Virus record (IMG/VR): IMGVR_UViG_3300032212_000011
Span: 1 to 53,689 of that record
Length of the DNA stretch: 53,689 bases
From: a virus
Lineage: Duplodnaviria > Caudoviricetes
Strand: one strand, 5' to 3'
Positions 6,980 to 49,958 of the stretch are shown one piece after another. How positions within the stretch are numbered: the first letter of the stretch is position 1; each line of letters opens with the position of its first letter. Both the position numbers and the translations under genes were made by a program. A model generated the notes under the pieces. It was not told the DNA's origin and did not search any database. It saw nothing but the letters and a program-made list of their open reading frames with translations.

Positions 6980-7435
6980 GTGAAGCTAACCATATTTGAT
7001 TTTGATGGAACATTAACTGCCAGCCTTTGGAGAAAGCAATTATATTTGGATGGGAAATATGATGATTTTCATGAAGCAGTTTCTGATGATATTGCCAATG
7101 AAAAAATATTTGATTTGTTTGCGTCAGCACTAGCAGAAGATGATCATGATGTAGTTATCTCTACAGCTAGACCCAGAAAGCATATAAAGTCTATGACAGA
7201 TTGGATAAGGGAAGAGGGCAGCTTTCTGAAATCTAAATTCTCAAGCATCCACATATATTGTAGGAGTGACTCAGACATAAGACCTAGCACTGAAGTCAAG
7301 AAAGACAATCTTGAGAGCTTATTGAGAAGACGTGGAGATGATTATGACTCTATTATTATTTATGAGGACCGTGAGGATTGCTGCCAAATGTACTCTGAGT
7401 TTGATGTAATAGTAGAGAAAGTGGAGGAGTTATGA
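6980..7435 (+). CDS. HAD-superfamily phosphatase (PNKP C-terminal-like), copy 1
   Basis: IFDFDGT motif I, ISTAR motif II, K, YEDR motif IV. Confidence 0.85.
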   Translation: MKLTIFDFDGTLTASLWRKQLYLDGKYDDFHEAVSDDIANEKIFDLFASALAEDDHDVVISTARPRKHIKSMTDWIREEGSFLKSKFSSIHIYCRSDSDIRPSTEVKKDNLESLLRRRGDDYDSIIIYEDREDCCQMYSEFDVIVEKVEEL

Positions 7436-7866
7436 GCAATGTATATGTATTTGACTTCGACGGAACAATCACTCAAAGCCTATGGAGAAATCACCATAGA
7501 CAAGAAAGGGACTATAGCACTTTTGATTCGCTACTAGCCTATGATGAACCAAATAATGATGTAGTTGGATTCATAAAGATGCTACAGAGCACTGGGCAAA
7601 TTATCATAGTATCGACTGCTAAATATGAAAGCAGAAGAGCGATGGTTACAAAATGGCTTCTGGAAAATAAAATATCTCCCAGATATATTTATATGAGAGA
7701 TGCTGGGGATTCTGAAACTGCTTCTGCCACAGTTAAATATAAAAATCTACAAAGGATATTGCTAACATTTTCTCCTACAGAAATAATCTGTATCGAGGAT
7801 GATGCAAAATGTATTGAGATGTATGAAGCAAATAATTGTATAGTTATACCTACTAGGAGAACATAA
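7432..7866 (+). CDS. HAD-superfamily phosphatase, copy 2
   Basis: VFDFDGT, VSTAK, YMRD, K, IEDD; clear paralogue of the upstream gene (SLWR shared). Confidence 0.85.
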   Translation: MSNVYVFDFDGTITQSLWRNHHRQERDYSTFDSLLAYDEPNNDVVGFIKMLQSTGQIIIVSTAKYESRRAMVTKWLLENKISPRYIYMRDAGDSETASATVKYKNLQRILLTFSPTEIICIEDDAKCIEMYEANNCIVIPTRRT

Positions 7867-8102
7867 TGGGCGACAAAAAGCAAGATACTGGAAAGCATTA
7901 CAGGAAAGAATACAAAGGAGTAAAGCTAGACCCTGCCAGAATAATAAAAGTTTATGGGGTGACTCACCCAATTCAATGTGGAGTGGTAAAGAAATCACTC
8001 AGGGCTGGACAAGGAAAGAAAACTCTATTGGAAGACATAAGGGATATCCAAACAGCATGCGATAGATGGATTGAGATGCTAGAAGAGGATGGAGAGATAT
8101 GA
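7866..8102 (+). CDS. Small conserved phage protein, DUF3310-like (possible nucleotide kinase)
   Basis: HY...D...K..RAG.K...EDI pattern reminiscent of DUF3310; translationally coupled. Confidence 0.45.
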   Translation: MGDKKQDTGKHYRKEYKGVKLDPARIIKVYGVTHPIQCGVVKKSLRAGQGKKTLLEDIRDIQTACDRWIEMLEEDGEI

Positions 8103-8779
8103 AAATTGTAATTGTAACTGGAGCAGAAAGCGGATTGGGGAAGGGAATTGCCAATCTATTTGAATCCAAAGGCTACCATGTTGTTAATCTTCCTAGGGAA
8201 ATATTTTGGGAAGATAATATGAAGTCTGCTATTGATTCTTTCATAGATGAAGTTGCTAGCACTTGCGATGTGTATGGCGTCATTAACTGTTTTGGAATCA
8301 ATCATCTTTCATTTATTGGAGAGACTCCTGAGGAAGATGAAAGAATATTTAGAATAAATGCCATGGGTCCATACTGGGTAATTAATGCGCTTAAAAGAAA
8401 TAAACAAGTCTGTAAAGTTTTGAATGTTTCATCCCAGACTTATCGAGTTGCTCAGAGAACTACTAGCATTTATTGCGCTAGCAAAGCAGCTCTATCGCAT
8501 ATGACTAAGGTTATGTCCAGAGAATTGGCTCCACACGGATGGCAAGTGAATGCTTACTCACCTGGCAAAATATTGGGAACTAAGATGGCTCGTAAAACTG
8601 ACAAGCAAGTTACAGAGCTAAGAGGTTGGGAAGATGATGATGCTGATGATTATGCCAAGAGTATGATTCCAGTAGGCAGATTTATGGATGTTGAAGAGGC
8701 ATCTCAAATAGCATATCAAATATTTGAATTGCCTCATTATGTAGCAGGGGAAACCATAGCTGCTACTGGAGGCGTTTGA
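8099..8779 (+). CDS. Short-chain dehydrogenase/reductase (SDR)
   Basis: TGAESGLG Rossmann motif, NVSS, YCASK catalytic YxxxK, VNAYSPG. Confidence 0.9.
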   Translation: MKIVIVTGAESGLGKGIANLFESKGYHVVNLPREIFWEDNMKSAIDSFIDEVASTCDVYGVINCFGINHLSFIGETPEEDERIFRINAMGPYWVINALKRNKQVCKVLNVSSQTYRVAQRTTSIYCASKAALSHMTKVMSRELAPHGWQVNAYSPGKILGTKMARKTDKQVTELRGWEDDDADDYAKSMIPVGRFMDVEEASQIAYQIFELPHYVAGETIAATGGV

Positions 8780-9321
8780 TGTTCTTTTTCTGTGATACTG
8801 AGACCACGGATTTGCTAGCTCCTGATGCAGCTGACCTAAACGTCCAACCTAGAATGACTGAAATTTATGCTTGCGTTACTGACGTTGACTTTAATATCAT
8901 AGCAGAGCTAGAAACGCTAGTCAATCCCCAGTTTCCAATCCCTCCACACATAACCAGAATAACAAATATAACAGATGAAATGGTGGCGGATGCTCCCAAG
9001 TTCATAGAGATATTTGACGAGCTATATGATATAGCAAAAATGAGCGAGGTTTTTGTGGCACACAATGCTTCTTTTGATGCTGGAGTTATTAAGCATGAGC
9101 TTGAGCGAGTAGGGCTTGAGTTCAATTTTCCGTGGTGGCGGTATCAACATTGTACAGTAGAGTTGTCCACTCCTATTGAGAACAAGCGACTCAAGCTAGT
9201 CAGACTCCATGAGATTGCTACTGGAAAGAAGTATTTCAACAACTCCCATAGAGCAAAGCCAGATGTTATGGCTATGTTAAAATGCTATAAGTGGCTAATG
9301 AAAGAGGGCTTTGTAAAATGA
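8779..9321 (+). CDS. DEDDh 3'-5' exonuclease (Pol III epsilon-like)
   Basis: DTETT, AHNASFD, HRAKPD; TGATG coupling to the SDR gene. Confidence 0.9.
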   Translation: MFFFCDTETTDLLAPDAADLNVQPRMTEIYACVTDVDFNIIAELETLVNPQFPIPPHITRITNITDEMVADAPKFIEIFDELYDIAKMSEVFVAHNASFDAGVIKHELERVGLEFNFPWWRYQHCTVELSTPIENKRLKLVRLHEIATGKKYFNNSHRAKPDVMAMLKCYKWLMKEGFVK

Positions 9322-12137
9322 TTCACTTAGCACTCAGGTCAGAGTACACCTTTAAGGATTGCTATCAGCATATTGATAAGCTAGCAGACCATGGAGAAGT
9401 GGCAGTTGGAATTGCTGACAGGAATAATACCTATGGCCACATAGCTCATTGGAAGAAATGTAAGGAGAAAGGAATCAAACCAATTTTTGGTGTTAGGCTT
9501 ATGGTTTGTATGAGACCTGAAGAGAAAAGAAAAGTTTGGGGTCCAGAATATATTTTCCTTGCAAAGAATGATCAGGGGCTGAAGGATATCTATCGGATGG
9601 TGCAAAGAGCATATGATAATTTCTACTACCATCCTTTCATTTGGCATGATGAATTAGATGAGCTTATTGATGATTCTGTTATCGTAATAGCTGAAACTTT
9701 TCAAGATGATAAGTATGTAGATTACATAGCGCTAACTCAAAGCACTCTTCCTATGATGCTTGATTGGGATATCCCCAAAGTTTTAATTTGCAACAATAGA
9801 TGGCCAGAGGCAAAAGATAAAGATGTTTATGAATTGCTGGCAGGAGATAAAAGAAATATTCAAACTTACCCTCAGCATGTTATGTCAAAAGAAGAAATGT
9901 GTAGGCTTTGGCCAAATCAGAATGCAGCTTTATGGAATACATTTACAATAGCCAATCAATGTAATGCGGAGCCAAAAATAGCAGACACTCTTAGATACAA
10001 TGGAGACAAAATTTTGGAGGACGAATGCTTAAAGGGAGCAAAGCTAAAGAATATAGATATGGGTGACCCTGAATATGCTGCTAGATATAAAATGGAATTG
10101 GGGCTAATCAAAGAAAAGGGATTCAATGATTATTTCTTGATCACTATGGAGATGGTTACTAAGGCAAAGGACATTATGCTAGTAGGTCCAGCGCGAGGCA
10201 GCTCTGCAGGCTCCCTAGTCTGCTACCTTCTAGGGATAACCGAGGTAGACCCGATTGTACACGACCTAATTTTTGAACGCTTTATAGATGCTAATAGAAA
10301 TGACTTGCCTGATATTGATGTTGACTTTCCTGACTATAAAAGGGATGCGGTGATTGCTGATTTAGTGAATGTAAATGGTAGGCAGAAAGTTAGACACATA
10401 TCCACCGTGAGTAAGTTGAAGCCCAAATCGGCAATAGCTGATTTTGCTAAAAGCCTTAGAATACCTGCCTATGAGACGGATGAAATTAGGAATGCTATCA
10501 TAGATAGGTCTGGAGGGGATGCTAGAGCAGCTATGAAAATAGCAGATACTTTTGATACAACAGAAGCAGGTCAAAGGTTCATAGAAAGATATCCTGCTAT
10601 GAAGTTAGTAGCAGACATAGAGAACCACGCTAGGCATACTGGAGTTCACGCAGCAGGAATAATCGTTGCTAATGATGAGCTATGGAATTATGGCGGGGTA
10701 AATACTCGTGATGATGTAATTATGCTAGACAAGAAAGAAGCAGAGCTTTTGAATCTTCTAAAGATAGATTGCTTAGGACTTAGGACTCTATCTGTATTGG
10801 AAGAATGTGCCATGCTGGTTGGTATGGATTACAATGACTTCTATACTTTGCCTTTGGATGATGCTCCCACCTACAAATTGCTAAATGATATGAGGCTATC
10901 TGGAATATTTCAATTTGAAGGAAGAGCTATGCAGATTCTATCTAAGGAAATGGGAATTGAGAATTTCGATGACATAGTAGCAATCACGGCATTGGCCAGA
11001 CCAGGACCACTACATTCAGGGGGAGCAAGCTTGTTCATCAAAAGAAGAACAGGACAAGAGCCGCTAGAATATCTCAGTGACCATCCTGATGTTGTTAGAC
11101 ATACCAAAGATACTTATGGAGTCATAATCTATCAAGAGCAATTGATGACAATTGCTAAGGATTTTGGAGATATGACTTGGTCTGAGGTTCAGCAAATTAG
11201 AAGAGCTGCCTCAAAATCTCTAGGTGAAGAATTCTTTAACAAATATAAAGAATCATTCTTGAACGGGACTAGAGCCAAAGGCATAGATGATGAAGAGGCA
11301 ACCAATGTATGGGAGAACATGGTTACTTTTGGGTCATGGGGAATGAATAAATCTCATACTGTTTCTTATGGGTTAATATCTTATTGGACTGCTTATATGA
11401 AAGCTCATTACCCAGTACAATTTGTAGTAGCAAATCTTAATCACTCAAAGAATGACTTGTCTTCCATAAAGATTTTGAGAGATGCCTTAGAATTTGAAGG
11501 AATTGTTCACATACCTGTAGACCCTGATAATTCTGATATGAAATGGAGGGAATTTGAAGGGAAAGTTTTGGGAGGATTGACTAACATCCCTGGCATAGGA
11601 GAAAAGAAAGCACAGTCAATTTTAAAAGCCAGAGAAAAAGGAAGATATACAGCAGGAATGCTCAAGTTGCTGCTAGATGTAAAGACTCCTTTTGATATCT
11701 TGTATCCTTGTAAGCACTATTGGGGAGAGTTCTATGAGAATCCCAGAGACTATGGGTTGAGGAAAGCACCAAATTGGATAGAAGATGTGCAAGAAAAAGG
11801 AACATATTTAATAATTGGTTTGGTTACTGCTAAAGATTTATTGGATATGAATGAGTATAACAAAGTTGCTAAGCGAGGTGGCAAGCTAGTAGATGGACCG
11901 ACTCAGTATTTGAAGATGAATATTGAGGATGATACAGATGCTATATCTTGTACAATAGGAAGATTCCAGTTTGAGCAACTACACGGACAGAGAATTTCTG
12001 ATGTTACAGTTTTAAATAAATCTTGGGTTATGATAAAAGGAAGAATAACTGGAGATTGGAGAGCCATCAACGTAGATGAAATAGAAATTCTAAATGAAAT
12101 TATGAAAGATCATTATTTGGAGAGAGGTGGAGAATGA
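9318..12137 (+). CDS. dnaE: DNA polymerase III alpha subunit (family C)
   Basis: PHP-like N-terminus (HLALRSEY, KPIFG), RGSSAGSLV.YLLGIT, PDIDVDF, HAAGII, KIDCLGL, NKSH; ATGA overlap supports start 9318. Confidence 0.95.
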   Translation: MIHLALRSEYTFKDCYQHIDKLADHGEVAVGIADRNNTYGHIAHWKKCKEKGIKPIFGVRLMVCMRPEEKRKVWGPEYIFLAKNDQGLKDIYRMVQRAYDNFYYHPFIWHDELDELIDDSVIVIAETFQDDKYVDYIALTQSTLPMMLDWDIPKVLICNNRWPEAKDKDVYELLAGDKRNIQTYPQHVMSKEEMCRLWPNQNAALWNTFTIANQCNAEPKIADTLRYNGDKILEDECLKGAKLKNIDMGDPEYAARYKMELGLIKEKGFNDYFLITMEMVTKAKDIMLVGPARGSSAGSLVCYLLGITEVDPIVHDLIFERFIDANRNDLPDIDVDFPDYKRDAVIADLVNVNGRQKVRHISTVSKLKPKSAIADFAKSLRIPAYETDEIRNAIIDRSGGDARAAMKIADTFDTTEAGQRFIERYPAMKLVADIENHARHTGVHAAGIIVANDELWNYGGVNTRDDVIMLDKKEAELLNLLKIDCLGLRTLSVLEECAMLVGMDYNDFYTLPLDDAPTYKLLNDMRLSGIFQFEGRAMQILSKEMGIENFDDIVAITALARPGPLHSGGASLFIKRRTGQEPLEYLSDHPDVVRHTKDTYGVIIYQEQLMTIAKDFGDMTWSEVQQIRRAASKSLGEEFFNKYKESFLNGTRAKGIDDEEATNVWENMVTFGSWGMNKSHTVSYGLISYWTAYMKAHYPVQFVVANLNHSKNDLSSIKILRDALEFEGIVHIPVDPDNSDMKWREFEGKVLGGLTNIPGIGEKKAQSILKAREKGRYTAGMLKLLLDVKTPFDILYPCKHYWGEFYENPRDYGLRKAPNWIEDVQEKGTYLIIGLVTAKDLLDMNEYNKVAKRGGKLVDGPTQYLKMNIEDDTDAISCTIGRFQFEQLHGQRISDVTVLNKSWVMIKGRITGDWRAINVDEIEILNEIMKDHYLERGGE

Positions 12138-12421
12138 AACTTAATGAATTATCAGACATACTTGAGCTTAAAAAGATGGAGGCAAAGAAGCGCACACCAA
12201 ATTATCACTTGAGGCTGAGCGATGAAAATCTAATTCAATTGGCAAAGTTGACTGAAGAGTATCACGAATCAAAAACTTGGTTCCCAATGCCTTATTGGGT
12301 AAGATTATTTTCAGAAACCTCTGATGTGAACGTAATACATGAACAATTAGAGAAGGCCAGCGTAAAAGTATTTGGTATGGAAATTCACGCAGAAGACCCA
12401 AGACATGGGAGAATAAGATGA
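12134..12421 (+). CDS. Hypothetical protein
   Basis: ATGA overlaps on both sides. Confidence 0.6.
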   Translation: MKLNELSDILELKKMEAKKRTPNYHLRLSDENLIQLAKLTEEYHESKTWFPMPYWVRLFSETSDVNVIHEQLEKASVKVFGMEIHAEDPRHGRIR

Positions 12422-13512
12422 TTCAAGAATATACTTTATATAAGCAAGATGCCAAAGGAAGAATCCGTTTGTGGAGAATATCGAATGATGATGGGTTGAT
12501 TCTCCGTGAGTCTGGTCTCATTGATGGTGATAAGGTTGAGACTGAGGACTACATTGAAGAAGGCAAGGCCAACCGAACTGTGGAAGAGCAAATTGATCTG
12601 TTCATGAACTCCAAAGTCAAAAAGAAAATTGACGCAGGTTACGTTTATGACTTGGAAGAGGCAAAAGCAAATAAGCCTACGAATGCTTTAGGTTTAACCA
12701 AGCCTATGCTTGCCAAGAGAGTTGACAGAGTTAAGCTTGACCAAATTGATTTTGGTGGAGCAGTAGTCCAAAGGAAATATGATGGACATAGGTGTATGGT
12801 GTCTTGGGTTGATGGAAGAGCTTTTGCCTACTCTAAGAATGGGAAAGAGTTGACAGCAATAACAGAGATTTTACATTCATTAAACTGTCTTGCTTTGGGG
12901 TTCAATGGATCAACTTTGGATGGAGAGCTATATTGTCATGGAAAATCACTACAAAGAATAAGTTCACTTGCTAAGAAAAGACAACCTGAAACTTCTGAGC
13001 TTGTTTATGTTATATATGATGTTGTATCAGACAAAGGATATCGTGATAGAATGGATATGCTAAAGCATATGTATGCCTATTACAATGATTTTGAAAATAT
13101 AACAGGGGCGCCTTCAATACCATGCGATGACTTCTCTCTGGGGAACCTTTACAAAATCAGAGATGAACAAATTGAATTGGGCTATGAAGGATTAATAGTT
13201 AGAATAGATGGAACTGGATATGAAGATGGCAAGCGTTCAACTAATCTTTTGAAGGTCAAGAAGTGTATTGATGGAGAATTCCTAGTCAAGAATATAATCC
13301 CATCCAAAGACAACTGGGGGATATTGGTGTGTATTTCTGATAATGGTTCAACATTTACAATGTCTGCGCCTGGCACTCACGCAGAAAAAGAAGAGTGTTT
13401 ATTAAATAAAGAAGCATATATTGGTAGACTAGTAACTGCTGAGTATGCTAACCTCACTGACGATGGAATACCTTTCCATCCCATAGCCAAAAATTGGAGA
13501 GAAACAGAATGA
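12418..13512 (+). CDS. ATP-dependent DNA ligase
   Basis: KPMLA, KYDGHR motif I, LDGELY, YEGLIVR, LLKVK. Confidence 0.92.
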   Translation: MIQEYTLYKQDAKGRIRLWRISNDDGLILRESGLIDGDKVETEDYIEEGKANRTVEEQIDLFMNSKVKKKIDAGYVYDLEEAKANKPTNALGLTKPMLAKRVDRVKLDQIDFGGAVVQRKYDGHRCMVSWVDGRAFAYSKNGKELTAITEILHSLNCLALGFNGSTLDGELYCHGKSLQRISSLAKKRQPETSELVYVIYDVVSDKGYRDRMDMLKHMYAYYNDFENITGAPSIPCDDFSLGNLYKIRDEQIELGYEGLIVRIDGTGYEDGKRSTNLLKVKKCIDGEFLVKNIIPSKDNWGILVCISDNGSTFTMSAPGTHAEKEECLLNKEAYIGRLVTAEYANLTDDGIPFHPIAKNWRETE

Positions 13513-14450
13513 GTGATAAAATAGTAATTTTAGGAGCAGGGATGGCAGGACTATTAGCTGCCAATATGATGCGCCACAGAAATCCTGTAGTCATGGAAAT
13601 AAAAGGTGAATTGCCACATAACCACGGAGCACTTTTAAGATTTAGAAGCAATTCTGTCTCAGCTGCTACAGGAGTTCCATTCAAAAAGGTGAATGTGTCA
13701 AAAGCAATTTACCATAATGGAGATGTGCTTAGCAGTCCAAACATATTAGTTTGTAACAAATACTCACAAAGAGTATCAGGAAAGGTGACTAATCGCTCAA
13801 TATCAAATTTGAATGATGAGACTAGATACATCGCTCCAGATAATTTCATAGAGTGTGCAGCTCGTGGAGTGGAAATTAGATATGGGATAAATCTTACAAC
13901 AGATGATTTTACTGATATTGCATTATCTTCTGGAAATCCAATTATTTCTACAATACCAATGCCAGCTTTGATGCAGAAATTGGACTATCCTGATAGAGAC
14001 AACAGCAAATTTGATTATTCACCTGTAGTTTCCTATAGGTTGACTATTGATAATGTTGATGCCTATCAAACAGTTTACATTCCTGATCCTGTAGACTCTC
14101 ATTTCTACCGCGTTTCTATTACAGGTCATGTAATCATATTTGAAACAACTCGTGACGACTTAGACATGAAAGAGGTCATTAGCGGGATGCAGGATATACT
14201 TTTCAAAGGATTTGGGATTTATGGGTGGGTGATCGCTCCAGAGTATATAGAGAAGGTCCACCAAAAGTATGGCAAGCTTATATCTGGAAACAGAAAGTAC
14301 GCAAGAAGATTCATATCTTGGGCAACAACTGAACGCAATGTTTATTCTTTAGGCAGATTCTCCACATGGAAGCAAATATTGATGGATGATTGCGTCAGAG
14401 ATATAAATGTTATTGATAATTTAATTGAAACTGAAAACTACAGAGGGTAA
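13509..14450 (+). CDS. FAD-dependent oxidoreductase (UDP-galactopyranose mutase / protoporphyrinogen oxidase-like fold)
   Basis: IVILGAGMAGLLAA dinucleotide-binding motif; ISTIP; C-terminal VYSLGRFSTWKQILMD. Confidence 0.7.
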   Translation: MSDKIVILGAGMAGLLAANMMRHRNPVVMEIKGELPHNHGALLRFRSNSVSAATGVPFKKVNVSKAIYHNGDVLSSPNILVCNKYSQRVSGKVTNRSISNLNDETRYIAPDNFIECAARGVEIRYGINLTTDDFTDIALSSGNPIISTIPMPALMQKLDYPDRDNSKFDYSPVVSYRLTIDNVDAYQTVYIPDPVDSHFYRVSITGHVIIFETTRDDLDMKEVISGMQDILFKGFGIYGWVIAPEYIEKVHQKYGKLISGNRKYARRFISWATTERNVYSLGRFSTWKQILMDDCVRDINVIDNLIETENYRG

Positions 14451-14454
14451 TACT

Positions 14455-15225
14455 ATGAGTATCATAAAAGAACCAAAAGTCAATTTGTTGGACTATACTG
14501 GGATGGGGATGTTGGACCCAAACTGGGCAGCTAAGAAGTTAATATACACAAAGCGCACTAGATTGGAGCAAAGTCCTGAAACATGGAAAGATACTTTTGA
14601 TCTATCAGGAAAAGAGTTGGAAGAAGAGCTACATTATGTAGCAAATTCAGTTAGAAGTAGCTGGGAGTTTGTAGACTTCACATTCCAAATATCTAATGTT
14701 GGAAGAGGATTCACACATCAAATGGTGAGAACGAGAACTGCTTCTTATGCTCAGCAATCTCAAAGAGTTGTTGATATGTCAGGATTTGATTATGTAGTTC
14801 CTCCTTGTATTGATGCAGATGAAAAGGCACTCGACAAATATTCTGAGGTAATGAGCAAGATTGACGATGGATACAAAGCATTGGTTGATATGGGGATGCC
14901 TGCTCAAGATGCCCGTGGTGTGTTGCCAACTAATGTGGGCACTAGCATAATTTGCTCCATGAATCTTAGAACGCTTGCGGATTTATGTGGGAAGCGAGAC
15001 AATCCCAGAGCAGAGGGTGAATATCATAAAGTGTTCAAAGGTATGGCAAAGTGCGCTCTTGAGGCTATGCCTTGGATTGAATACTTTTTGTATCCTCCAA
15101 GAATGGAGACTCCTGCCTTAGATGAGATTCTTATTACATTGAGAGGTGACAGGTCTCCAGTGGAAAATAATCTTTTAAATGATGCAATGAAAGAAATTGA
15201 TCGACTAAAGAAGGTTTGGGGGTAA
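14455..15225 (+). CDS. thyX: Divergent flavin-dependent thymidylate synthase (ThyX family)
   Basis: HQMVRTRTASYAQQSQR (RHRx7S with H to T), QDARGVLP, MNLRTL, KRD.RAEGE. Confidence 0.8.
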   Translation: MSIIKEPKVNLLDYTGMGMLDPNWAAKKLIYTKRTRLEQSPETWKDTFDLSGKELEEELHYVANSVRSSWEFVDFTFQISNVGRGFTHQMVRTRTASYAQQSQRVVDMSGFDYVVPPCIDADEKALDKYSEVMSKIDDGYKALVDMGMPAQDARGVLPTNVGTSIICSMNLRTLADLCGKRDNPRAEGEYHKVFKGMAKCALEAMPWIEYFLYPPRMETPALDEILITLRGDRSPVENNLLNDAMKEIDRLKKVWG

Positions 15226-15228
15226 GTC

Positions 15229-15531
15229 ATGAATGAAGATGAACTAATATTGCTAAATGCTATCTTAGACAAATATGAAATGAATTTGATAACTGCGATT
15301 TGGATTTTGAGAATAAGAAACAATCCATGTTGTACAGTCAATGATATTGCTACTGGAGTGAAAGATGCCAACAATATTAGGGTATCTTTGAAGCATCGCG
15401 CTCTTTCCCAATTCGTTGATACAAAAATTGGAGTTAGCAATGGTCAAGGCAGACCACCATTTCTATTAATAGTCAACGAACGAGGGAACAATATTTGCGA
15501 GGATTTAGATGGGCTAATTAGAAAGGGCTAA
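15229..15531 (+). CDS. Hypothetical protein, possible winged HTH
   Basis: NPCCTVNDIA helix pattern and GRP wing-like motif. Confidence 0.45.
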   Translation: MNEDELILLNAILDKYEMNLITAIWILRIRNNPCCTVNDIATGVKDANNIRVSLKHRALSQFVDTKIGVSNGQGRPPFLLIVNERGNNICEDLDGLIRKG

Positions 15532-15586
15532 AAATAGCTCTTTTATTTAGTAATTCTAGCCCCTACAAGGGCTATTCTAGCGATTA

Positions 15587-15620
15587 TCTCCCCTATATCT
15601 ATCTAATCGTATAGGGGAGA
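15587..15620. terminator. Hairpin at the convergence of the two transcription arms
   Basis: TCTCCCCTATA...TATAGGGGAGA 11-bp inverted repeat between convergent stop codons; lacks an adjacent U-tract. Confidence 0.55.
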
Positions 15621-15642
15621 GCCTAAAAGGGGCTTAAAACGT

Positions 15643-16008
15643 CTATTTTCCTCTATCTTGTATAAAGGTAAAATTGCCCTCTAATATGGTAGAAATTTCA
15701 GAAGCACCATCAACCATTTCAATATCATAGAAGAAATCACCAATTCTATCAGAATCTCCAGCACTGATTGGGAATGAAACTCTTCCATTAGGTCCATCAG
15801 TTATTGTCCCAGTAGATTGAAATTCATAATCTGCTGATTCTGGAGCCTCCAACTGAGTCACAGATAGTGTAAAAGTGAATCCTGTTATGTCTAAAACTGC
15901 TCCAGCAGAATCCGTCAACGAAAGATTAATTGATTTGGTATCACCTCGCTTTCTGATGATATTAGTTTGGGGAACTTCGCCCACCGTAGTTACATTAGCT
16001 CTAGACAT
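15643..16008 (-). CDS. Putative virion protein (BppU N-terminal-like)
   Basis: RGDT, DITG, G.VSF.I...D, G.FFYDIE, TILEG.F pattern. Confidence 0.6.
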   Translation of the reverse strand: MSRANVTTVGEVPQTNIIRKRGDTKSINLSLTDSAGAVLDITGFTFTLSVTQLEAPESADYEFQSTGTITDGPNGRVSFPISAGDSDRIGDFFYDIEMVDGASEISTILEGNFTFIQDRGK

Positions 16009-16010
16009 TT

Positions 16011-16283
16011 TTATTCTTCCACAGTAATAGTTAAATTGTCATCAACATCAGAAGACAAATCAGATTCATCTATTGAAACTGAAATATCATCCTCTATTGA
16101 AACTTGTAAATCCATTGCCTCAACAGCAACTCCAATTCCTTCTTCATCAATAGACACATCAAAGCCACTTATGAAAAAAGTAGTGCCAGAGCCTCCAGCA
16201 TTTAAGTTGTTCAGGTGATCCCTAACCATGTTTGGAGAACCCAAAGTGCTAGCTTCCAGCAGCAATTCTCTAAAAGTTGCCAT
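16011..16283 (-). CDS. Acidic hypothetical protein, probably structural
   Basis: Coupled ORF; repeated VSI(D/E) units. Confidence 0.55.
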   Translation of the reverse strand: MATFRELLLEASTLGSPNMVRDHLNNLNAGGSGTTFFISGFDVSIDEEGIGVAVEAMDLQVSIEDDISVSIDESDLSSDVDDNLTITVEE

Positions 16284-17365
16284 TATGTCTCAGTATCCAA
16301 GAATGCTTGTACAATGTCGGCAGTTCTTCTCTGATCTTTTATGGTTATTGTAGCAGCAGGATCAACCTCATACTCATAACAATCTCCACGGATGCACAAA
16401 GTTCCACCAGAACAAGTTGCGTCAACCCAAACTTTCCCGCCATAAACTTCAAGAACTGTTTCCCCAGCAGTCATGTTAGTCAGTCCAATATCACCATGCC
16501 AGTCTTCTGCCGTGAGGTTGTGTGCTCCAATATCAAAAACAGGGTATGCGTCTCCATCTGCCATATCATAACATTCAAATAGGGAAGTGCTACCATTCAA
16601 TTCTATGCTAGATAAGAAAGCGCACTTTTCAAAGAATCCAGATACAGCAGTTATTGCTGCAATACTACACCTAGTTATTGTGTTCAACCCATCAAGCTGA
16701 CCCATCAAAGTCATGTTCTCAACACTACAACCTGTTACATTTGCAGCATCTGCAGCAGTCAAAACCACATATGGGGAGACTCCTTTGAAATTATATCCTA
16801 AGCTATAGTCTTGATCAACCAGAGTCATACTTTCAAGAAAAGTAAATGATCTTATTCCTTGCGTTGTTGCTATAGTTAGTGCATCATCCAAATTCTTAGC
16901 TGGTATTTTGAACGTCCCAATTGGAGTTGAAACGCCATCTTCCCCAGTCGTTGGATTTATTACTACATGGCCTTGGTAAGCAGAAGCCAAAAGAACTTCC
17001 AAATCCACTAGGCCAGCAGAATTAGCTGATCGAACTGAAACTTGGTTTACATTAACTCTGTCCCCAACATTAGAATTGGCCCCAACTAAGTTCACAGCAT
17101 ATTGTCCATCTTCAAATGTAACAGTGTATGGCTCTAGTATCTCTATAGAGCGAGCAAGGGTAACGCCTCCAACTGTAAGAGTTGTATTGTGATTATGAGT
17201 ACTATCAAATACCACCCCTTCTTCACTATCGCCAATATCCCTCAACTCCAATCTAAAAGCATTCAGGTCAAGCTGTCTGATTTCAGTAGGAGTAGATTGT
17301 ATCAGCGTCATATCTGCTCTAGGAACAAAAATGACGTTAGTTAGTCTGTCTATTGTTATTGCCAT
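16283..17365 (-). CDS. Putative virion structural protein (beta-rich)
   Basis: Long ORF in the late operon; T/G/S/D-rich, Lys-poor. Confidence 0.6.
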   Translation of the reverse strand: MAITIDRLTNVIFVPRADMTLIQSTPTEIRQLDLNAFRLELRDIGDSEEGVVFDSTHNHNTTLTVGGVTLARSIEILEPYTVTFEDGQYAVNLVGANSNVGDRVNVNQVSVRSANSAGLVDLEVLLASAYQGHVVINPTTGEDGVSTPIGTFKIPAKNLDDALTIATTQGIRSFTFLESMTLVDQDYSLGYNFKGVSPYVVLTAADAANVTGCSVENMTLMGQLDGLNTITRCSIAAITAVSGFFEKCAFLSSIELNGSTSLFECYDMADGDAYPVFDIGAHNLTAEDWHGDIGLTNMTAGETVLEVYGGKVWVDATCSGGTLCIRGDCYEYEVDPAATITIKDQRRTADIVQAFLDTET

Positions 17366-17370
17366 ATGTT

Positions 17371-18981
17371 TTACTCGTCAGGTTGTAAAGCAATCACAGA
17401 AGAAAATCCAGTAACATCTACTACAGTTCCAGTGGTAGTTGATGGGACTTTGTATGGTGACACTGAACCTTGCCTTGCTTTTATTCTAATATCCAACCCA
17501 GAAGGATCAAAAGCGCTTTCATAAGTGAAAGATGTATCTTGTATAATTCCAGATGAATCAGTAAGACCTGTTAATAGCACATCACCATCAGTTATCGTTC
17601 CCGCAGTCTCTGTTGCTTTTATTTCAACTCTAGCATTTTCAATAGGAGTTCCTGCATCGTCAGTTACTGTGACTTTGATTGTGACCGGTGCTACTGACAC
17701 AGTTACAGTGGCCCCTGCTGTCCTTATACTAGGAGTAGTAGCTCCCGCTTGTACATTTATTGTAAGAGAGCCGCTGCCTACGTTGACATAAATTGCTTCA
17801 TTGCCTGTAGAGCCATCTGTTCCAGCATATCCCGTGAGAGTAGAGTCCCAATCCATAGAGCCTCCGCCTACAGATGAAAGCTCCACGGCATGTCCTGTTC
17901 CATCGCTAGCAAATTCACAAGTATTTATGTCCTCCAAATCATCACAAAACACAGCAGAGCTGGCACGATTCTCATCAATGACGCAATTTGTTAGAGTTGC
18001 ACCATTCAACGTTATGCTATCTGAATCTCTCCAAGTGACTCCTGTTAAAGTGCTATTGGACCTTAAAGTGGTCGTGCCAATTGAAGTGTAAACTCCTCCA
18101 GTTACAGTGAAAGTAGGATTGTTGCTTGTGACAGTTATAGTTCCTCTGTTAGTTGTTCCAAGCGCTTTTATGTTTATTGTATCCCAAGTACAAGTGGAGC
18201 TTGCGTGGTCTATAATTATCTCGCTAAAATCAGACGCAGCGTGAATAGTATCAGGTATGATGATATCAACGGCAGAATCATCAAAATAGCAAAGAGTAGC
18301 AACCTGAGAATTATTTTGACCAATAGCAAACTTGCCTTGTAGTTCATAAGCACCATTAAAACTAGTTAGGATTCCCCATCGATTTGCCACTAAGTCATTC
18401 TCAGTAGAAAATCCATCAAAGGTAGCAGGGTCACCAACTTCACCCGCAGTTAGGTATGCTCCAGTTCCAACTCGAATAGCATCCACGCTAAACTTAGCAG
18501 TAGCAATAGAGTCAAATCTCATTCCAGCACTGTCAGGAGAGGTGCCAGGTGAGCCAACCAAAGTTCTGTAAGGAGATGACCCATTGGAAGTATTAACAAA
18601 ATCTATAGGGTAGCAGCGTCCAACTCGACCGCCTGCACCATAAGTGTCATTTCCTTCAACGTGAAATTCAACATAAGCAGTCGTGCTGTCTCCTATTATT
18701 ACTTTGGCTCCTCCATTTGCTATTGTATCAAATGCACCAGGACTTGCAGCAAAGCCCCATACATAAATATGATTCCCTCCTGTCAAGTCAAATGCACTTC
18801 CATCTTGATACAGTGCACCGCGCTGGTTTGCACCAGAGACACCTCTCTCAATGGAGTTTGTTCCCTGCATAGAAAAAGTTGAAGATGCGACCATGCCTCC
18901 AGAGCCGATGGCAGACCAACCAGTGGTTGATTCTGCCAAGTCGATATCTGTGAGGTCTTCAGTATATGAAGGAGCAGCCAT
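17371..18981 (-). CDS. Putative virion fibre/structural protein with beta-helix-like segment and C-terminal Ig-like domain
   Basis: T/S/G-rich; VTVTDDAGTPIENARV typical of prealbumin/Ig-like domains. Confidence 0.6.
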   Translation of the reverse strand: MAAPSYTEDLTDIDLAESTTGWSAIGSGGMVASSTFSMQGTNSIERGVSGANQRGALYQDGSAFDLTGGNHIYVWGFAASPGAFDTIANGGAKVIIGDSTTAYVEFHVEGNDTYGAGGRVGRCYPIDFVNTSNGSSPYRTLVGSPGTSPDSAGMRFDSIATAKFSVDAIRVGTGAYLTAGEVGDPATFDGFSTENDLVANRWGILTSFNGAYELQGKFAIGQNNSQVATLCYFDDSAVDIIIPDTIHAASDFSEIIIDHASSTCTWDTINIKALGTTNRGTITVTSNNPTFTVTGGVYTSIGTTTLRSNSTLTGVTWRDSDSITLNGATLTNCVIDENRASSAVFCDDLEDINTCEFASDGTGHAVELSSVGGGSMDWDSTLTGYAGTDGSTGNEAIYVNVGSGSLTINVQAGATTPSIRTAGATVTVSVAPVTIKVTVTDDAGTPIENARVEIKATETAGTITDGDVLLTGLTDSSGIIQDTSFTYESAFDPSGLDIRIKARQGSVSPYKVPSTTTGTVVDVTGFSSVIALQPDE

Positions 18982-18986
18982 CAGGA

Positions 18987-20681
18987 TTACTCGTCAGATA
19001 CACGAGCTACAGCAGCAGAACCGCCACCAGAACCCAAAGTAGCAGTTGCTTCATATGGAACAGTGGGGCTAGGCTCACCGCCATAACGTCTGCGCACGAC
19101 AAGAGTTCTGCTTGCATTGAACACAGTAGTGAAGTTCAGAGTAGTTCCTGAAGTTATTTCCTCATCAATGTAAGAAACAAACATATTATTTCCAGCAGTA
19201 GCATTATCAGAACTGAAGTCTGTACTGGTAATTGTAAACGTGCTACCTGTATAAGAAGAATAATCAATTCTAATATATTTGCCTGAATCAGTTTGAACTC
19301 TTATAGAGCCAGAAGCAGGAGTATCAACAGGAATAACAGTATCAGATACAATGCTAGTTACAGCGGCACCCGTGAGTGTCGCATTCAATCCTAATTGGGC
19401 TACATCTAGCACTCCAGCCAATTCAGGACCAACCAACACATAATCTTCATTGGCTACCAATCCAGTAACTGTAAAGGTTACATTATTAGGTGGCTGGTTC
19501 GCAGTTCCAGTTAAATCAATAACCAAATCAGCAACAGCCAAATCATCAGCACCAATACCTAAACCATATGCGCCGATGATAGCAGAACCAGTAGATGCTC
19601 CAATGAAAGGCAAGGAAATAGTTTTAGCAGATACAGTAACATTCACATCAACTGTTCCGCCACCATTGCCTGTGATAGTCATACCGTCTGTTGGCAGCAC
19701 TCCTGTAAGGAGTTGTATCCAAATTTCAGTAGCGGCAGTCGTACTATTTGTAGCCAGCAATTGTCCAGTTCCTGCAGTAGCTCCAGTCCCCCAAGATAAA
19801 GATTCAGGCTCCACTAGAGTTCCTGTAGGAGTGTCTACTGTTATTGAATGGGTAATACCTCGAAAGATATCTGCGCTCAATCCATATAAAGTTGAAACAG
19901 TTCCCTCTCTTTGTAGCCACTGAGCATATTCATAGAAATCATTCTTAGAGTTAGCACCAAGCTCCCAATCACTGTAATAGAATTCATCAGTGGTGTTGCC
20001 ATCTGCATCAATCCCTTGGTAGCCTTCTATGTTGGTGATGTCAGCAATAGCTCCAATAGTAGCCTCAAGAGTTTGGTTATTCAAGTTGCTATCAGCTTTC
20101 AGAGCAAGTACATTATTACCACGGTTAGTCCCGCCACCAATAGAAAACTCAGTATATTGAGTTCCATAAACTCTCTGAGTACCAATTAATCTACGACCAT
20201 CAATATCAGCACCAGCACTTCTAACTAACACTAAAAATCTGTGCGTAGTAGATGAAGCAGCATCTTCAACAGCAGCGATCATTTTTGCTTCATTCCAGAA
20301 ATCGTTTGTAATCCTAGCACCATTTTGAATTACTTGTATGCTAGCTGAATTACCAAACACTTGAATGCCATCATAAATATCATCACCACCCTCTTGGGTA
20401 ATTGATGTATCATACAGATGTTCTGCTGCAGTTTGATCAATGTTAAAGCCATTAAGCAAAGTAATGTTTGTATCAACACCACCTCGTTGAGAAGGAACTT
20501 CATCAATGATAGATAATTCATCATCACCAGAGTCAACTTCTTGGTCAGCAAAATCTTGAAGCGCTCTATGTAATTCAATTCCTGTGGCATATGTAGGAGC
20601 AGACCCTGCGTGGGCATCCCCAATATATCTGATGTTCCCATTGGACCGTGTTATAGTCCAGTCTGTTGCGTCCCAAGTCAT
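18987..20681 (-). CDS. Putative virion structural protein
   Basis: 564 aa, acidic, T/G/A-rich, in the late operon. Confidence 0.6.
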   Translation of the reverse strand: MTWDATDWTITRSNGNIRYIGDAHAGSAPTYATGIELHRALQDFADQEVDSGDDELSIIDEVPSQRGGVDTNITLLNGFNIDQTAAEHLYDTSITQEGGDDIYDGIQVFGNSASIQVIQNGARITNDFWNEAKMIAAVEDAASSTTHRFLVLVRSAGADIDGRRLIGTQRVYGTQYTEFSIGGGTNRGNNVLALKADSNLNNQTLEATIGAIADITNIEGYQGIDADGNTTDEFYYSDWELGANSKNDFYEYAQWLQREGTVSTLYGLSADIFRGITHSITVDTPTGTLVEPESLSWGTGATAGTGQLLATNSTTAATEIWIQLLTGVLPTDGMTITGNGGGTVDVNVTVSAKTISLPFIGASTGSAIIGAYGLGIGADDLAVADLVIDLTGTANQPPNNVTFTVTGLVANEDYVLVGPELAGVLDVAQLGLNATLTGAAVTSIVSDTVIPVDTPASGSIRVQTDSGKYIRIDYSSYTGSTFTITSTDFSSDNATAGNNMFVSYIDEEITSGTTLNFTTVFNASRTLVVRRRYGGEPSPTVPYEATATLGSGGGSAAVARVSDE

Positions 20682-47848: not shown

Positions 47849-47974
47849 GAAAAATTTCTCCAGTTTTTCAACGTTATTATGAGCCAAGTATTATACGATA
47901 TAAAGGCGTCAATAGATATATGGTAGTTTGTATATATAATAAATGATCATTGATACAAAATATTTCCTAAATGC

Positions 47975-49096: not shown

Positions 49097-49351
49097 ATGA
49101 ATATGAAAGAAGCAACTGTTGATGATGAAGTGATTTCACACCCTGAGAATCAATGTTTTACTGCAGGCATTAATTTGCCAAAATGGGGCCATAAAATTGA
49201 AGTGCACAGTAGCAGCAGAGAAGGTGCTATTGCTGAGCGCGACCAAATTTTAAGCCTACTACAACAAGAACAAACTGTGAGAGATGAAGCGTTCAATCGT
49301 GGCTATGCTGCATGCAAGAATGCTATTATGGAGCTATTAAATGAAGCCTAA
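49097..49351 (+). CDS. Hypothetical protein
   Basis: AAGGA RBS; operon packing. Confidence 0.6.
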   Translation: MNMKEATVDDEVISHPENQCFTAGINLPKWGHKIEVHSSSREGAIAERDQILSLLQQEQTVRDEAFNRGYAACKNAIMELLNEA

Positions 49352-49958
49352 AAATATTGGTGGCATGAGAGTCCAAGAGCATGACCTTACATCAGAGAAT
49401 CCGTATGAGGCATTGGGTGTTCCATCTGACAGCAATAGAAGCCAAATCAAAGTTGCCTTCCTCAAACTAAGCAAAATATATCATCCTGACGTTGGAGGGG
49501 CAGTTGCTGACTTCCAAAAAGTTCAATGGGCCTACAAGATATTATCCAATGAAGAATCAAGAAAGTTGTATGATGAAACTGGAAGCACTGCTGCTAAGCA
49601 AGAATTGAATATCCACGCTCTTATGGCAAAAATAATGGGTGAGCAGCTATCAAAAGAAGGGTTTGAAGGAAACATCATCCAGACAATTCTCCTACGTCTA
49701 GATAACGACCTAAGAACCTATAAAAATAATATAAGGGAAGCTAGCAGAGGCGTACAAACGCTTAATAGGCAGCGTGGCAGAGTGCGCAATGATGAAGAAT
49801 ACAACATATTTGATGGATATCTAGATGAACAGATTCAAGGTGCCAAAAAGCAAATAGCAGTATTTGAAAAGGCACTAGAAGAAATTCAAATGGCAATAGA
49901 AGGCTTCAAAAATTATGAAGATACAAGACCTACTCAAAACCATGGGAGATTCTCATGA
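49341..49958 (+). CDS. J-domain (DnaJ type III) protein with C-terminal coiled coil
   Basis: PYEALGV...YHPD.GG...FQ.VQ.AY.ILS...R..YD. Confidence 0.9.
   Translation: MKPKNIGGMRVQEHDLTSENPYEALGVPSDSNRSQIKVAFLKLSKIYHPDVGGAVADFQKVQWAYKILSNEESRKLYDETGSTAAKQELNIHALMAKIMGEQLSKEGFEGNIIQTILLRLDNDLRTYKNNIREASRGVQTLNRQRGRVRNDEEYNIFDGYLDEQIQGAKKQIAVFEKALEEIQMAIEGFKNYEDTRPTQNHGRFS

What the first reader, a model, noticed from the sequence alone, without database searches (positions are those of the whole stretch)
14455..15225. ThyX homologue lacking both hallmark histidines
Seen: the RHRx7S signature reads RTR-TASYAQQ-S. The upstream segment that is GH.(S/T).FEH in canonical ThyX reads SVRSSWEF. The Ser, the following Arg, QDAR..LP and the late Arg (KRD) are retained. 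Known: in Thermotoga ThyX the GH histidine (H53) stacks on the folate and RHR contacts FAD/dUMP. Inference: nucleotide and flavin binding are kept but the folate site is remodelled, so the enzyme may use a different donor or stop at a different product.
Basis: partly seen in the sequence, partly recalled or inferred. Interest (0 to 1): 0.8.

Follow-up and report, generated by a model that had tools for sequence, protein, structure and literature searches.

The report
Partner-dependent phage ThyX variant
This phage gene is a real but rebuilt flavin-dependent thymidylate synthase homologue that always travels with a second, unnamed flavoprotein gene, a pairing also carried by therapy phages whose DNA was recently found to hold an unexplained modified thymine.

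Summary
Window 14455-15225 (+) encodes a 256-aa Thy1/ThyX-fold protein whose RHRx7S motif reads RTRx7S, and T. maritima H53 and H59 are V and F.

It is not a one-off. All 120 close homologues share these features. The gene belongs to a deep phage clade separated from canonical ThyX by a branch with support 100.

RTR is not the defining change. Inside the clade the middle residue is T 53, H 38, N 5, S 4 of 100 loci. The clade-defining change is loss of the whole H53-N85-Y91 triad.

The clade also has a partner. A 313-aa flavoprotein with a UDP-galactopyranose-mutase/protoporphyrinogen-oxidase-like fold lies directly upstream in 92 of 93 testable clade loci and in 0 of 80 canonical loci. The reverse search gave 78/78 and 6/6.

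No carrier has ThyA or a second ThyX (0/36).

Carriers include Pbunavirus, reported in 2025 to hold hypermodified thymine with no known genes.

Best reading: an obligate two-flavoprotein module acting on C5 of dUMP. The product is open: dTMP about 0.4, or a 5-hydroxymethyl/activated derivative.

The parts
14455..15225 (+). ThyX-like protein (P0001, 256 aa): Thy1 fold, RTRx7S, lacks the H53/N85/Y91 triad and H59; C-terminal helical tail about residues 213-256
13509..14450 (+). Partner flavoprotein (P0273, 313 aa; the ORF tool lists a TTG at 13494): GxGxxG plus an acidic residue ending beta-2; phrog_4828 'unknown function'; fold nearest UDP-galactopyranose mutase and protoporphyrinogen oxidase
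   Evidence: linkage
14436..14457 (+). Junction: partner stop TAA at 14448-14450, AGAGGG inside the partner's last codons, ThyX-like ATG at 14455. This layout fits coupled translation (inference).
   Evidence: by stop-to-stop ORF coordinates the gap is <=100 nt in 72 of 92 pairs
8099..8779 (+). Classical SDR (P0393; TGxxxGxG, S...YxxxK intact). Possible accessory, by association only.
   Evidence: Homologue present in 25 of 99 clade loci and 0 of 80 canonical loci. It lies next to the pair in Wifcevirus. No Pseudomonas phage is listed among its 164 matching phage records.
6980..7866 (+). Two tandem HAD_PNKP-type phosphatase-domain ORFs (6980-7435 and 7432-7866). Possible accessory, by association only.
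   Evidence: Homologues in 21 and 33 of 99 clade loci and 0 of 80 canonical loci. HAD-domain genes lie next to the ThyX-like gene in Pbunavirus and Wifcevirus and near it in Rhizobium phage TM30.
8776..12137 (+). Context: RNase T-type 3'-5' exonuclease (8776-9321) and DNA polymerase III alpha (9291-12137), the replication module in which the pair usually sits
   Evidence: 63 and 79 of 99 clade loci against 0 and 6 of 80 canonical loci

Best explanation
P0001 is the nucleotide-binding catalytic half of an obligate two-gene flavoenzyme module found essentially only in phages. The module is a compact UGM/PPOX-fold flavoprotein followed by a ThyX that has lost the H53-N85-Y91 triad.

Shown:
- ThyX fold.
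- Retention of the residues that in T. maritima ThyX hold dUMP and the flavin.
- Coordinated replacement of the residues that hold folate/NADPH on the other flavin face.
- Near-absolute linkage to the partner gene.
- It is the sole thymidylate-synthase-type gene in every carrier examined.

Inferred: the enzyme still places or handles a one-carbon unit at C5 of deoxyuridylate on its own FAD. The half-reaction that canonical ThyX performs at the H53 pocket (flavin reduction by NADPH and/or methylene delivery) has been handed to, or is gated by, the partner flavoprotein.

My single most likely product is still dTMP, which makes this a partner-dependent thymidylate synthase. The stated confidence is for this dTMP reading. 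That the two genes form one functional unit acting on dUMP C5 I put at about 0.8.
For: - Fold and family: Pfam Thy1 E 7.4e-37. AF2 model pLDDT 95, Foldseek TM 0.80 to 1o27.
- Nucleotide-side residues are invariant in 60 diverse clade members: Q89, R92, R94, R154, R172, R181; R104 is nearly so.
- Linkage: the flavoprotein lies upstream on the same strand in 92 of 100 clade loci. 7 of the other 8 have <=672 nt upstream; only L109 lacks it with 2,639 nt upstream. It is in 0 of 80 canonical ThyX loci.
- Reverse search from the flavoprotein: 78 of 80 IMG/VR loci hold a clade-type ThyX downstream, and the other 2 are cut 100 and 555 nt after the gene. 6 of 6 testable GTDB contigs do too.
- Clade against canonical split has SH-aLRT 100.
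- No ThyA in 36 of 36 carriers and exactly one Thy1 gene each, 12 of them (the window and 11 IMG/VR records) >=90% complete by CheckV. This is the pattern expected of a phage's own thymidylate synthase.
- In Rhizobium phage TM30 the pair sits with dUTPase and ribonucleotide reductase.
- Inteins interrupt two homologues.
Against: - PMC11940539 (passages read) reports that Y91 mutation slows flavin oxidation during methylation about 1000-fold, and that H53 stacks the folate. By canonical rules, an enzyme lacking H53, N85 and Y91 should be a very poor dTMP synthase.
- No member of this clade has been assayed, as far as my ten literature searches show.
- The partner's nearest folds (UGM, PPOX, amine oxidases) are not NAD(P)H:flavin reductases.
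- Two cultured carrier genera show signs of DNA modification with no known genes. Pbunavirus F8 and 14-1 have about a quarter of T replaced. [quoted passage not shown]
Confidence: 0.4

Rival explanations
1. Same two-gene module, different product. The ThyX-like enzyme transfers the methylene to dUMP but does not finish with hydride transfer. It releases 5-hydroxymethyl-dUMP, or a 5-methylene species trapped by an alcohol. This would be a ThyA-independent, flavin-based entry to 5-CH2-X thymidine hypermodification. The partner flavoprotein, HAD phosphatases and SDR would serve flavin redox upkeep or side-chain supply.
For: - All 292 Pseudomonas phage records that match the ThyX-like protein have a counterpart count of 292 for the flavoprotein. 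Those listed are about 61-67 kb PB1-like phages, and 'crassa' is filed as Pbunavirus.
- Pbunavirus crassa has RTR, no His at the H53 position and no Tyr at the Y91 position, and no ThyA.
- bioRxiv 10.1101/2025.03.31.646159 (section 8 read in full) reports new thymidine-derived nucleosides of 362 and 390 u in F8 and 14-1. They replace about a quarter of T in a TG context, in phages said to lack known modification genes.
- By my arithmetic, 5-hmdU + erythritol - H2O = 362.3 and 5-hmdU + pentose - H2O = 390.3. Both therefore need an activated 5-CH2 group.
- Wifcevirus carries the pair with HAD and SDR genes and resists RM systems unexplained.
- HAD and SDR homologues are in 33 and 25 of 99 clade loci and 0 of 80 canonical loci.
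- The SDR's best solved relatives include polyol and sugar dehydrogenases, though they are generic.
Against: - A hydroxymethylase needs the methylene donor as much as a synthase does, so loss of the folate-face residues is not explained any better.
- Three quarters of Pbunavirus T is ordinary T, and the modification is TG-specific. That requires a DNA-level step and, on this model, conversion of the remaining hmU to T.
- No kinase, glycosyltransferase or aGPT-Pplase-type domain was recognised among the 50 window ORFs scanned against Pfam.
- The link to Pbunavirus and Wifcevirus is one related lineage, not independent cases.
- Nothing is known about the DNA of the window's phage.
Confidence: 0.3
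2. Donor-free 'reverse ThyX'. With oxidised FAD the enzyme abstracts hydride from the methyl of dTMP. This regenerates the electrophilic exocyclic methylene, which water or a polyol traps. The partner flavoprotein re-oxidises the flavin. No folate or NADPH site is needed.
For: - It is the only model that directly explains why every folate/NADPH-face residue is lost while the nucleotide and flavin residues are kept.
- The partner belongs to an oxidase-rich superfamily.
- The chemistry is the reverse of the last step of the ThyX mechanism as described in PMC8989533 (passage).
Against: - There is no precedent known to me.
- Carriers with dUTPase and RNR but no other thymidylate synthase suggest the enzyme consumes dUMP, not dTMP.
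- The model is purely inferential.
Confidence: 0.1
3. An ordinary, autonomous ThyX whose odd residues are tolerated drift. The upstream flavoprotein is merely a co-inherited neighbour in one phage replication module.
For: - The pair usually travels with DNA polymerase III alpha and an exonuclease (79 and 63 of 99 loci), so the linkage is partly shared ancestry.
- The RHR histidine is evolutionarily labile.
- Databases already name these proteins thymidylate synthase.
Against: - The pair persists in a 207-kb Rhizobium phage, at a locus where the annotated neighbours include an exonuclease, a HAD-like hydrolase, dUTPase and RNR but no polymerase III alpha.
- It persists across contigs of about 40-104 kb, with the genes abutting or overlapping (gap <=100 nt by stop-to-stop ORF coordinates) in 72 of 92 pairs.
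- The substitutions are not drift. Clade-specific residues are themselves conserved: I/V at H53 in 97 of 100 loci, F at H59 in 98, A at N85 in 99, never Y at Y91.
Confidence: 0.08
4. A catalytically dead ThyX-fold protein kept for a structural or regulatory role.
For: Loss of residues considered important in T. maritima ThyX (PMC11940539 passages).
Against: - All substrate-phosphate and uracil-side arginines are invariant.
- Two homologues carry inteins within the domain.
- The family is large and strongly conserved: 804 hits, E<=1e-3.
Confidence: 0.02

Closest known systems
Canonical flavin-dependent thymidylate synthase ThyX/FDTS (T. maritima TM0449; PDB 1o26/1o27)
   Same: Thy1 domain and fold. 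Q75, R78, R80, S88, R90, R147, R165 and R174 equivalents are kept in the window protein.
   Different: - H53->V, H59->F, H79->T, N85->A, Y91->V, W181->G; new conserved K33/R36.
- About 40-residue C-terminal helical tail.
- Obligate upstream flavoprotein, which canonical phage ThyX loci never have (0 of 80).
ThyA-family dUMP/dCMP hydroxymethylases of phages with 5-hmdU-derived hypermodification (as described in PMC8989533, passages read)
   Same: Possible analogous role: divergence of a thymidylate synthase scaffold toward a 5-CH2-X product in phages.
   Different: Unrelated fold and cofactor logic. No ThyA-family gene is in the window or in any of 36 carriers. The activity here is unproven.
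UDP-galactopyranose mutase / protoporphyrinogen oxidase / amine oxidase flavoproteins (for the partner)
   Same: N-terminal FAD-binding Rossmann motif. Whole-chain structural match: 4dsh Z 22.7 (rmsd 3.4, 305 aligned), PPOX Z about 20, LAAO/MAO Z about 18.7.
   Different: - About 313 aa against 365-510 aa.
- 10-16% identity.
- No Pfam family reaches its cut-off and there is no PDB sequence hit.
- Essentially virus-restricted.
- Catalytic residues were not compared.
Folate/FAD-dependent RNA uracil-C5 methyltransferases TrmFO/MnmG (named in PMC8989533 and PMC11940539 passages)
   Same: Flavin-N5 methylene relay onto uracil C5. A histidine stacks the folate in TrmFO (PMC11940539 passage).
   Different: These are single proteins acting on RNA. 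I did not test any relationship of the partner flavoprotein to them.

Membership tests
ThyX / FDTS (Pfam PF02511 Thy1) | Thy1 domain and ThyX fold | tested here: met
   E 7.4e-37, 127.4 bits against cut-off 24.8. Foldseek TMt 0.80, E 9.7e-12 to 1o27_A.
ThyX / FDTS (Pfam PF02511 Thy1) | Signature RHRx7S (Myllykallio 2002, as quoted in PMC2826268) | tested here: not met
   The motif reads RTRx7S. One mismatch would still pass the <=2-mismatch filter used in PMC2826268. 62 of 100 clade loci lack the His.
ThyX / FDTS (Pfam PF02511 Thy1) | Nucleotide-side residues (Tm Q75, R78, R80, R90, R147, R165, R174; their roles are recalled, not tested) | tested here: met
   Q89, R92, R94, R104, R154, R172 and R181 are present and invariant or nearly invariant in 60 clade members.
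ThyX / FDTS (Pfam PF02511 Thy1) | Folate/NADPH-face triad H53-N85-Y91 (roles per PMC11940539 passages) | tested here: not met
   V66, A99 and V105 in the window. Canonical loci have H 79/80 and Y 80/80; the clade has I/V/T and T/V/A/I.
ThyX / FDTS (Pfam PF02511 Thy1) | Works as a stand-alone enzyme (no dedicated partner gene) | tested here: not met
   Partner flavoprotein in 92 of 93 testable clade loci, 0 of 80 canonical loci. Reverse search: 78/78 and 6/6. This is gene linkage only; physical or functional dependence is not shown.
ThyX / FDTS (Pfam PF02511 Thy1) | Makes dTMP from dUMP, CH2-THF and NADPH | not testable with these tools
   Needs complementation and an enzyme assay.
UGM/PPOX/amine-oxidase (GR2-type) flavoproteins (partner P0273) | N-terminal GxGxxG and an acidic residue ending beta-2 | tested here: met
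   G9, G11 and G14 invariant, E30 nearly invariant in 48 sequences.
UGM/PPOX/amine-oxidase (GR2-type) flavoproteins (partner P0273) | Two-domain fold | tested here: met
   AF2 pLDDT 91.8. VIA Z 22.7 to 4dsh, 20.6 to 3lov. Atlas TM 0.78-0.81 by query length to PPOX-like clusters.
UGM/PPOX/amine-oxidase (GR2-type) flavoproteins (partner P0273) | Sequence-family membership (Pfam Amino_oxidase/GLF) | tested here: not met
   Only Pyr_redox_2 at E 0.033, 14 bits against cut-off 26.1. No PDB sequence hit at E<=10.
UGM/PPOX/amine-oxidase (GR2-type) flavoproteins (partner P0273) | UGM substrate-binding and histidine-loop residues | not tested
   No residue-level superposition was available.
5-hmdU-based thymidine hypermodification pathway (PMC8989533) | ThyA-family dUMP hydroxymethylase | tested here: not met
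   PF00303: 0 matches in the window's complete record.
5-hmdU-based thymidine hypermodification pathway (PMC8989533) | 5-hmdU DNA kinase and aGPT-Pplase transferase | tested here: inconclusive
   Pfam scans of 50 window ORFs named no such domain. No dedicated models were used, and many ORFs have no match at all.
5-hmdU-based thymidine hypermodification pathway (PMC8989533) | Modified thymidine in virion DNA | not testable with these tools
   Needs LC-MS of virion DNA. It is known only for Pbunavirus F8 and 14-1.

The most novel reading that the evidence does not exclude
The flavoprotein + triad-less ThyX pair is a flavin-based, ThyA-independent route to an activated 5-methylene or 5-hydroxymethyl deoxyuridylate. 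The route would run either from dUMP with a non-canonical carbon-delivery step or by oxidising dTMP.

It would be the missing genetic origin of the 5-CH2-O-sugar(alcohol) thymidines just reported in Pbunavirus. If so, a very large set of uncultured phages, this one included, would carry unrecognised thymine modifications.
Probability: 0.38. Interest if true: 0.9.

Novelty: new variant of a known kind. Interest (0 to 1): 0.8.

Why it matters
- **An undescribed enzyme system.** ThyX is treated as a self-contained enzyme and as an antibiotic target. Here a whole phage branch of the family has discarded the residues that define its folate/NADPH half-site and acquired an obligate second flavoprotein. 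My ten literature searches found no description of this arrangement.
- **It is widespread.** The ThyX-like protein has 804 word-index hits and the partner 1,723.
- **It is in therapy phages.** The pair is present in Pbunavirus phages used in therapy.
- **It makes an open question testable.** How Pbunavirus builds its newly found modified thymine without any known modification gene can now be tested with two named genes.
- **Either outcome is informative.** A partner-dependent thymidylate synthase and a flavin-dependent hydroxymethylase would each be new enzymology.

Tried and rejected
- **Binding prediction.** Complex prediction on ThyX-like (A4) with the flavoprotein (A3), 1:1, returned 'no answer' (score 0.00, mark 0.32). 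I take nothing from it.
- **Fusion proteins.** None of 270 ThyX-search proteins contains a flavoprotein domain. Long forms are inteins (P0218, P0246) or have unnamed N-terminal extensions.
- **Close cultured relatives.** Megablast of 8000-20000 against phage records gave no match.
- **Partner sequence in PDB.** No match at E<=10.
- **Cellular carriers that could prove essentiality.** Only 7 GTDB contigs hold the flavoprotein, and all are MAG contigs. This was not informative.
- **Literature on a ThyX-type hydroxymethylase or a ThyX partner.** Nothing found. PMC7048862 on vB_Eco4M-7 holds no restriction-digest data.
- **SDR as a pteridine/dihydrofolate reductase.** None is among the 60 best of 235 PDB matches; these are generic SDRs including polyol dehydrogenases.
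- **H178->R as a third lost histidine.** Rejected, because most canonical sequences also have R there.
- **Earlier findings.** The search of earlier findings was not open.
- **Not seen.** Supplementary and Extended Data files of the END-nuclease preprint could not be seen. They may list Pbunavirus gene annotations that bear on rival 1.

Full report
**1. The observation**

Window 14455-15225 (+) is an open 256-aa frame (P0001). The opposite strand is full of stops. The ATG at 14455 follows the upstream gene's stop by 4 nt and is preceded by AGAGGG. Homologues start at the same point (100% coverage, 255-257 aa).

Pfam Thy1 matches at E 7.4e-37 and PHROG 85 'thymidylate synthase' at 1.3e-31. The HMMER alignment to T. 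maritima ThyX chains maps residues as follows. Chain index minus 12 gives the residue number, checked against S30, H53, R78, N85, R90 and Y91 as named in PMC11940539.

- RHR(78-80) -> R92-T93-R94
- S88 -> S102, R90 -> R104
- H51-G-H53-E-T-P-F-E-H59 -> N64-S-V66-R-S-S-W-E-F72
- R147 -> R154, R174 -> R181

Two further changes were missed: N85 -> A99 and Y91 -> V105.

**2. It is a conserved family, not decay**

The word-index search found 804 proteins. All of the best 120 (50-70% identical) have RTR and (S/T)(V/I/L)RSSWE(F/M).

The exhaustive search of 50%-identity cluster representatives found 4,208 hits. Aligning the best 150 shows a large group with T(I/V)xSSWEF and R(T/H/S/N)R. Canonical sequences of the GH..EH + RHR type appear only from about E 1e-25.

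An AF2 model (pLDDT 95) superposes on T. maritima ThyX with TM 0.80.

**3. What defines the clade**

I fetched 177 IMG/VR loci using three queries (P0001, a canonical alignment A1, and an RHR-type clade alignment A2). I added two phage records and the window. L015 and L136 are the same contig.

Comparing 100 clade loci with 80 canonical loci gives these group-specific positions:

| T. maritima residue | Canonical loci | Clade loci |
|---|---|---|
| G52/H53 | G 75, H 79 of 80 | T 93, I 94 of 100 |
| H59 | H 77 | F 98 |
| N85 position | S 66 | A 99 |
| Y91 | Y 80 of 80 | T 53, V 31, A 8, I 4 (top four; never Y) |
| W181 | W 72 | G 92 |

- The clade also has new conserved K33 and R36, where canonical sequences have A and C.
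- The RxR middle residue is T 53, H 38, N 5, S 4 in the clade and H 75, F 3, Y 2 in canonical loci.
- A maximum-likelihood tree of 161 distinct sequences puts the 83 clade rows on one side of a branch with SH-aLRT 100. I dropped identical sequences and rows shorter than 170 residues.
- Within the clade the RxR middle residue changed at least 6 times.

RTR is therefore a secondary, labile feature. The coordinated loss of the H53-N85-Y91 triad is the real signature.

PMC11940539 (passages read) supports the triad's importance. It states that the H53 imidazole is held by Y91 and N85, stacks the reduced flavin or the folate pterin, and that Y91 mutation slows flavin oxidation about 1000-fold. PDB titles confirm that H53A, H53D and Y91F mutants were studied.

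**4. The partner**

The gene immediately upstream (13509-14450; P0273) has a GxGxxG start. It has no Pfam family above cut-off and no PDB sequence match. It matches PHROG 4828, 'unknown function'.

Its family is large and viral: 1,723 hits, and the Atlas clusters are 95-100% viruses. Its AF2 model (pLDDT 91.8) is closest to UDP-galactopyranose mutases (Z 22.7-21.3), then protoporphyrinogen oxidases (Z about 20), then L-amino-acid and monoamine oxidases (Z about 18.7).

Linkage was tested with HMMs built here.

- The flavoprotein lies upstream on the same strand in 92 of 100 clade loci. 7 of the remaining 8 have <=672 nt of upstream sequence; only L109 has room (2,639 nt) and lacks it.
- None of 80 canonical loci has it within their flanks.
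- By stop-to-stop ORF coordinates the gap is <=100 nt in 72 of 92 pairs.
- Starting instead from the flavoprotein, 78 of 80 IMG/VR loci hold a clade-type ThyX. The other two are cut 100 and 555 nt downstream.
- 6 of 6 testable GTDB contigs also hold it. All 7 hits are MAG contigs.
- In the phage database the two proteins hit matching counts: Pseudomonas 292 and 292, Escherichia 27 and 27. The Gordonia, Mycobacterium, Halorubrum, Bacillus and other phages that appear in the ThyX tally are not listed among the top ten names of the flavoprotein tally; nine minor names are not shown.

**5. Context**

The window is a complete virus record by CheckV.

- It has sipho-type structural genes: tape measure, major head protein, portal and terminase.
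- Its replication block holds an AAA_24 ATPase, a DUF669 protein, a helicase, two HAD_PNKP phosphatase-domain ORFs, an SDR, an RNase T-type exonuclease, DNA polymerase III alpha and an ATP ligase, followed by the pair.
- It has no ThyA and one Thy1 gene.
- The same holds in 35 other carriers: 0 with ThyA, each with exactly one Thy1 gene.
- Homologues of the polymerase III alpha, exonuclease, HAD and SDR genes are in 79, 63, 33/21 and 25 of 99 clade loci, against 6, 0, 0 and 0 of 80 canonical loci.

Part of the linkage is therefore shared ancestry of one replication module. However, the pair also sits in a 207-kb Rhizobium phage next to dUTPase and ribonucleotide reductase.

**6. Link to modified DNA**

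Pbunavirus 'crassa' and Wifcevirus Bas99 carry the pair within the same gene block. Their ThyX-likes read RTR and have A at the Y91 position; in crassa the H53 position reads I.

A 2025 preprint (10.1101/2025.03.31.646159; section 8 read in full, other parts as passages) reports the following:

- Pbunavirus F8 and 14-1 DNA was previously thought unmodified.
- In these phages about a quarter of T is replaced, in a TG context, by nucleosides of 362 and 390 u.
- These phages lack known modification genes.
- The words thymidylate, ThyX and oxidoreductase do not occur in its main text.

By my arithmetic the masses equal 5-hmdU + erythritol - H2O and 5-hmdU + pentose - H2O. [quoted passage not shown]

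These are leads, not proof, and the two genera are related.

**7. Reading**

Shown:

- a ThyX fold with an intact nucleotide side and a rebuilt opposite face;
- an obligate gene partner of an oxidase/mutase-type flavoprotein fold;
- the sole thymidylate-synthase-type gene in its carriers.

Inferred: the two proteins work as one system on C5 of deoxyuridylate.

My probabilities for the product are:

| Reading | Probability |
|---|---|
| Partner-dependent dTMP synthase | about 0.40 |
| dUMP-derived 5-hydroxymethyl/activated product for thymine hypermodification | about 0.30 |
| dTMP-oxidising 'reverse' enzyme | about 0.10 |
| Ordinary autonomous ThyX | about 0.08 |
| Inactive protein | about 0.02 |
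| Other | the remainder |

No computation here separates the first three. The assays listed under next steps would.

**8. Novelty**

Ten full-text searches found no description of a ThyX subfamily with a dedicated flavoprotein partner or of a ThyX-type hydroxymethylase. Known 5-hmdU pathways use ThyA-family enzymes (PMC8989533, passages).

I class this as a new variant of a known kind. It could prove categorically new enzymology.

Noticed in passing
window 6980-7435 and 7432-7866 (+): Two tandem ORFs overlapping by 4 nt, each a HAD_PNKP-type phosphatase domain (about 150 aa). In Pbunavirus and Wifcevirus a single 290-342-aa protein with this domain plus an unnamed C-terminal half sits beside the ThyX-like gene.
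   Followed up: partly
window 8099-8779 (+): Intact classical SDR. Homologues accompany the pair in Wifcevirus, Serratia and Xanthomonas phages, but no Pseudomonas phage is listed among its matches. They also occur in Gordonia and Mycobacterium phages as 'FabG-like reductase'.
   Followed up: partly
L001:7336-8091 (Vibrio phage VA-RY-3): A sulfotransferase-like gene (Pfam Sulfotransfer_3, E 5.8e-07) lies two genes downstream of the ThyX-like gene, between it and the exonuclease/polymerase III alpha genes.
   Followed up: no
proteins P0218 and P0246 (homologues, not in the window): Inteins are inserted inside the ThyX-like domain, roughly 100 residues from the N-terminus.
   Followed up: partly
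proteins P0121, P0073, P0101, P0133, P0150, P0197: ThyX-like homologues with N-terminal extensions of about 140-340 residues that match no Pfam family. They could be extra domains or gene-calling artefacts.
   Followed up: partly
window 15229-15531 (+): A 100-aa ORF directly after the ThyX-like gene. It has no Pfam or PHROG match and no homologue in any of the 179 other loci compared.
   Followed up: partly
window 50896-51315 and 49341-49958 (+): A phage-encoded peptide deformylase (Pfam E 1.2e-39) and a DnaJ-domain protein.
   Followed up: no
window 17371-18981, 18987-20681, 45560-47887 (-): Large ORFs (536, 564 and 775 aa). None has a significant Pfam match (the first only a weak Ig-like hit), and the first two have no PHROG match; 45560-47887 was scanned against Pfam only.
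   Followed up: no
L023, L034, L085 (RFR); L078, L084 (RYR): Canonical GH-type phage ThyX sequences in which the RHR histidine is Phe or Tyr. Among 50%-cluster representatives, P0254 combines GH with RTR, P0256 with RKR and P0260 with RYR.
   Followed up: partly
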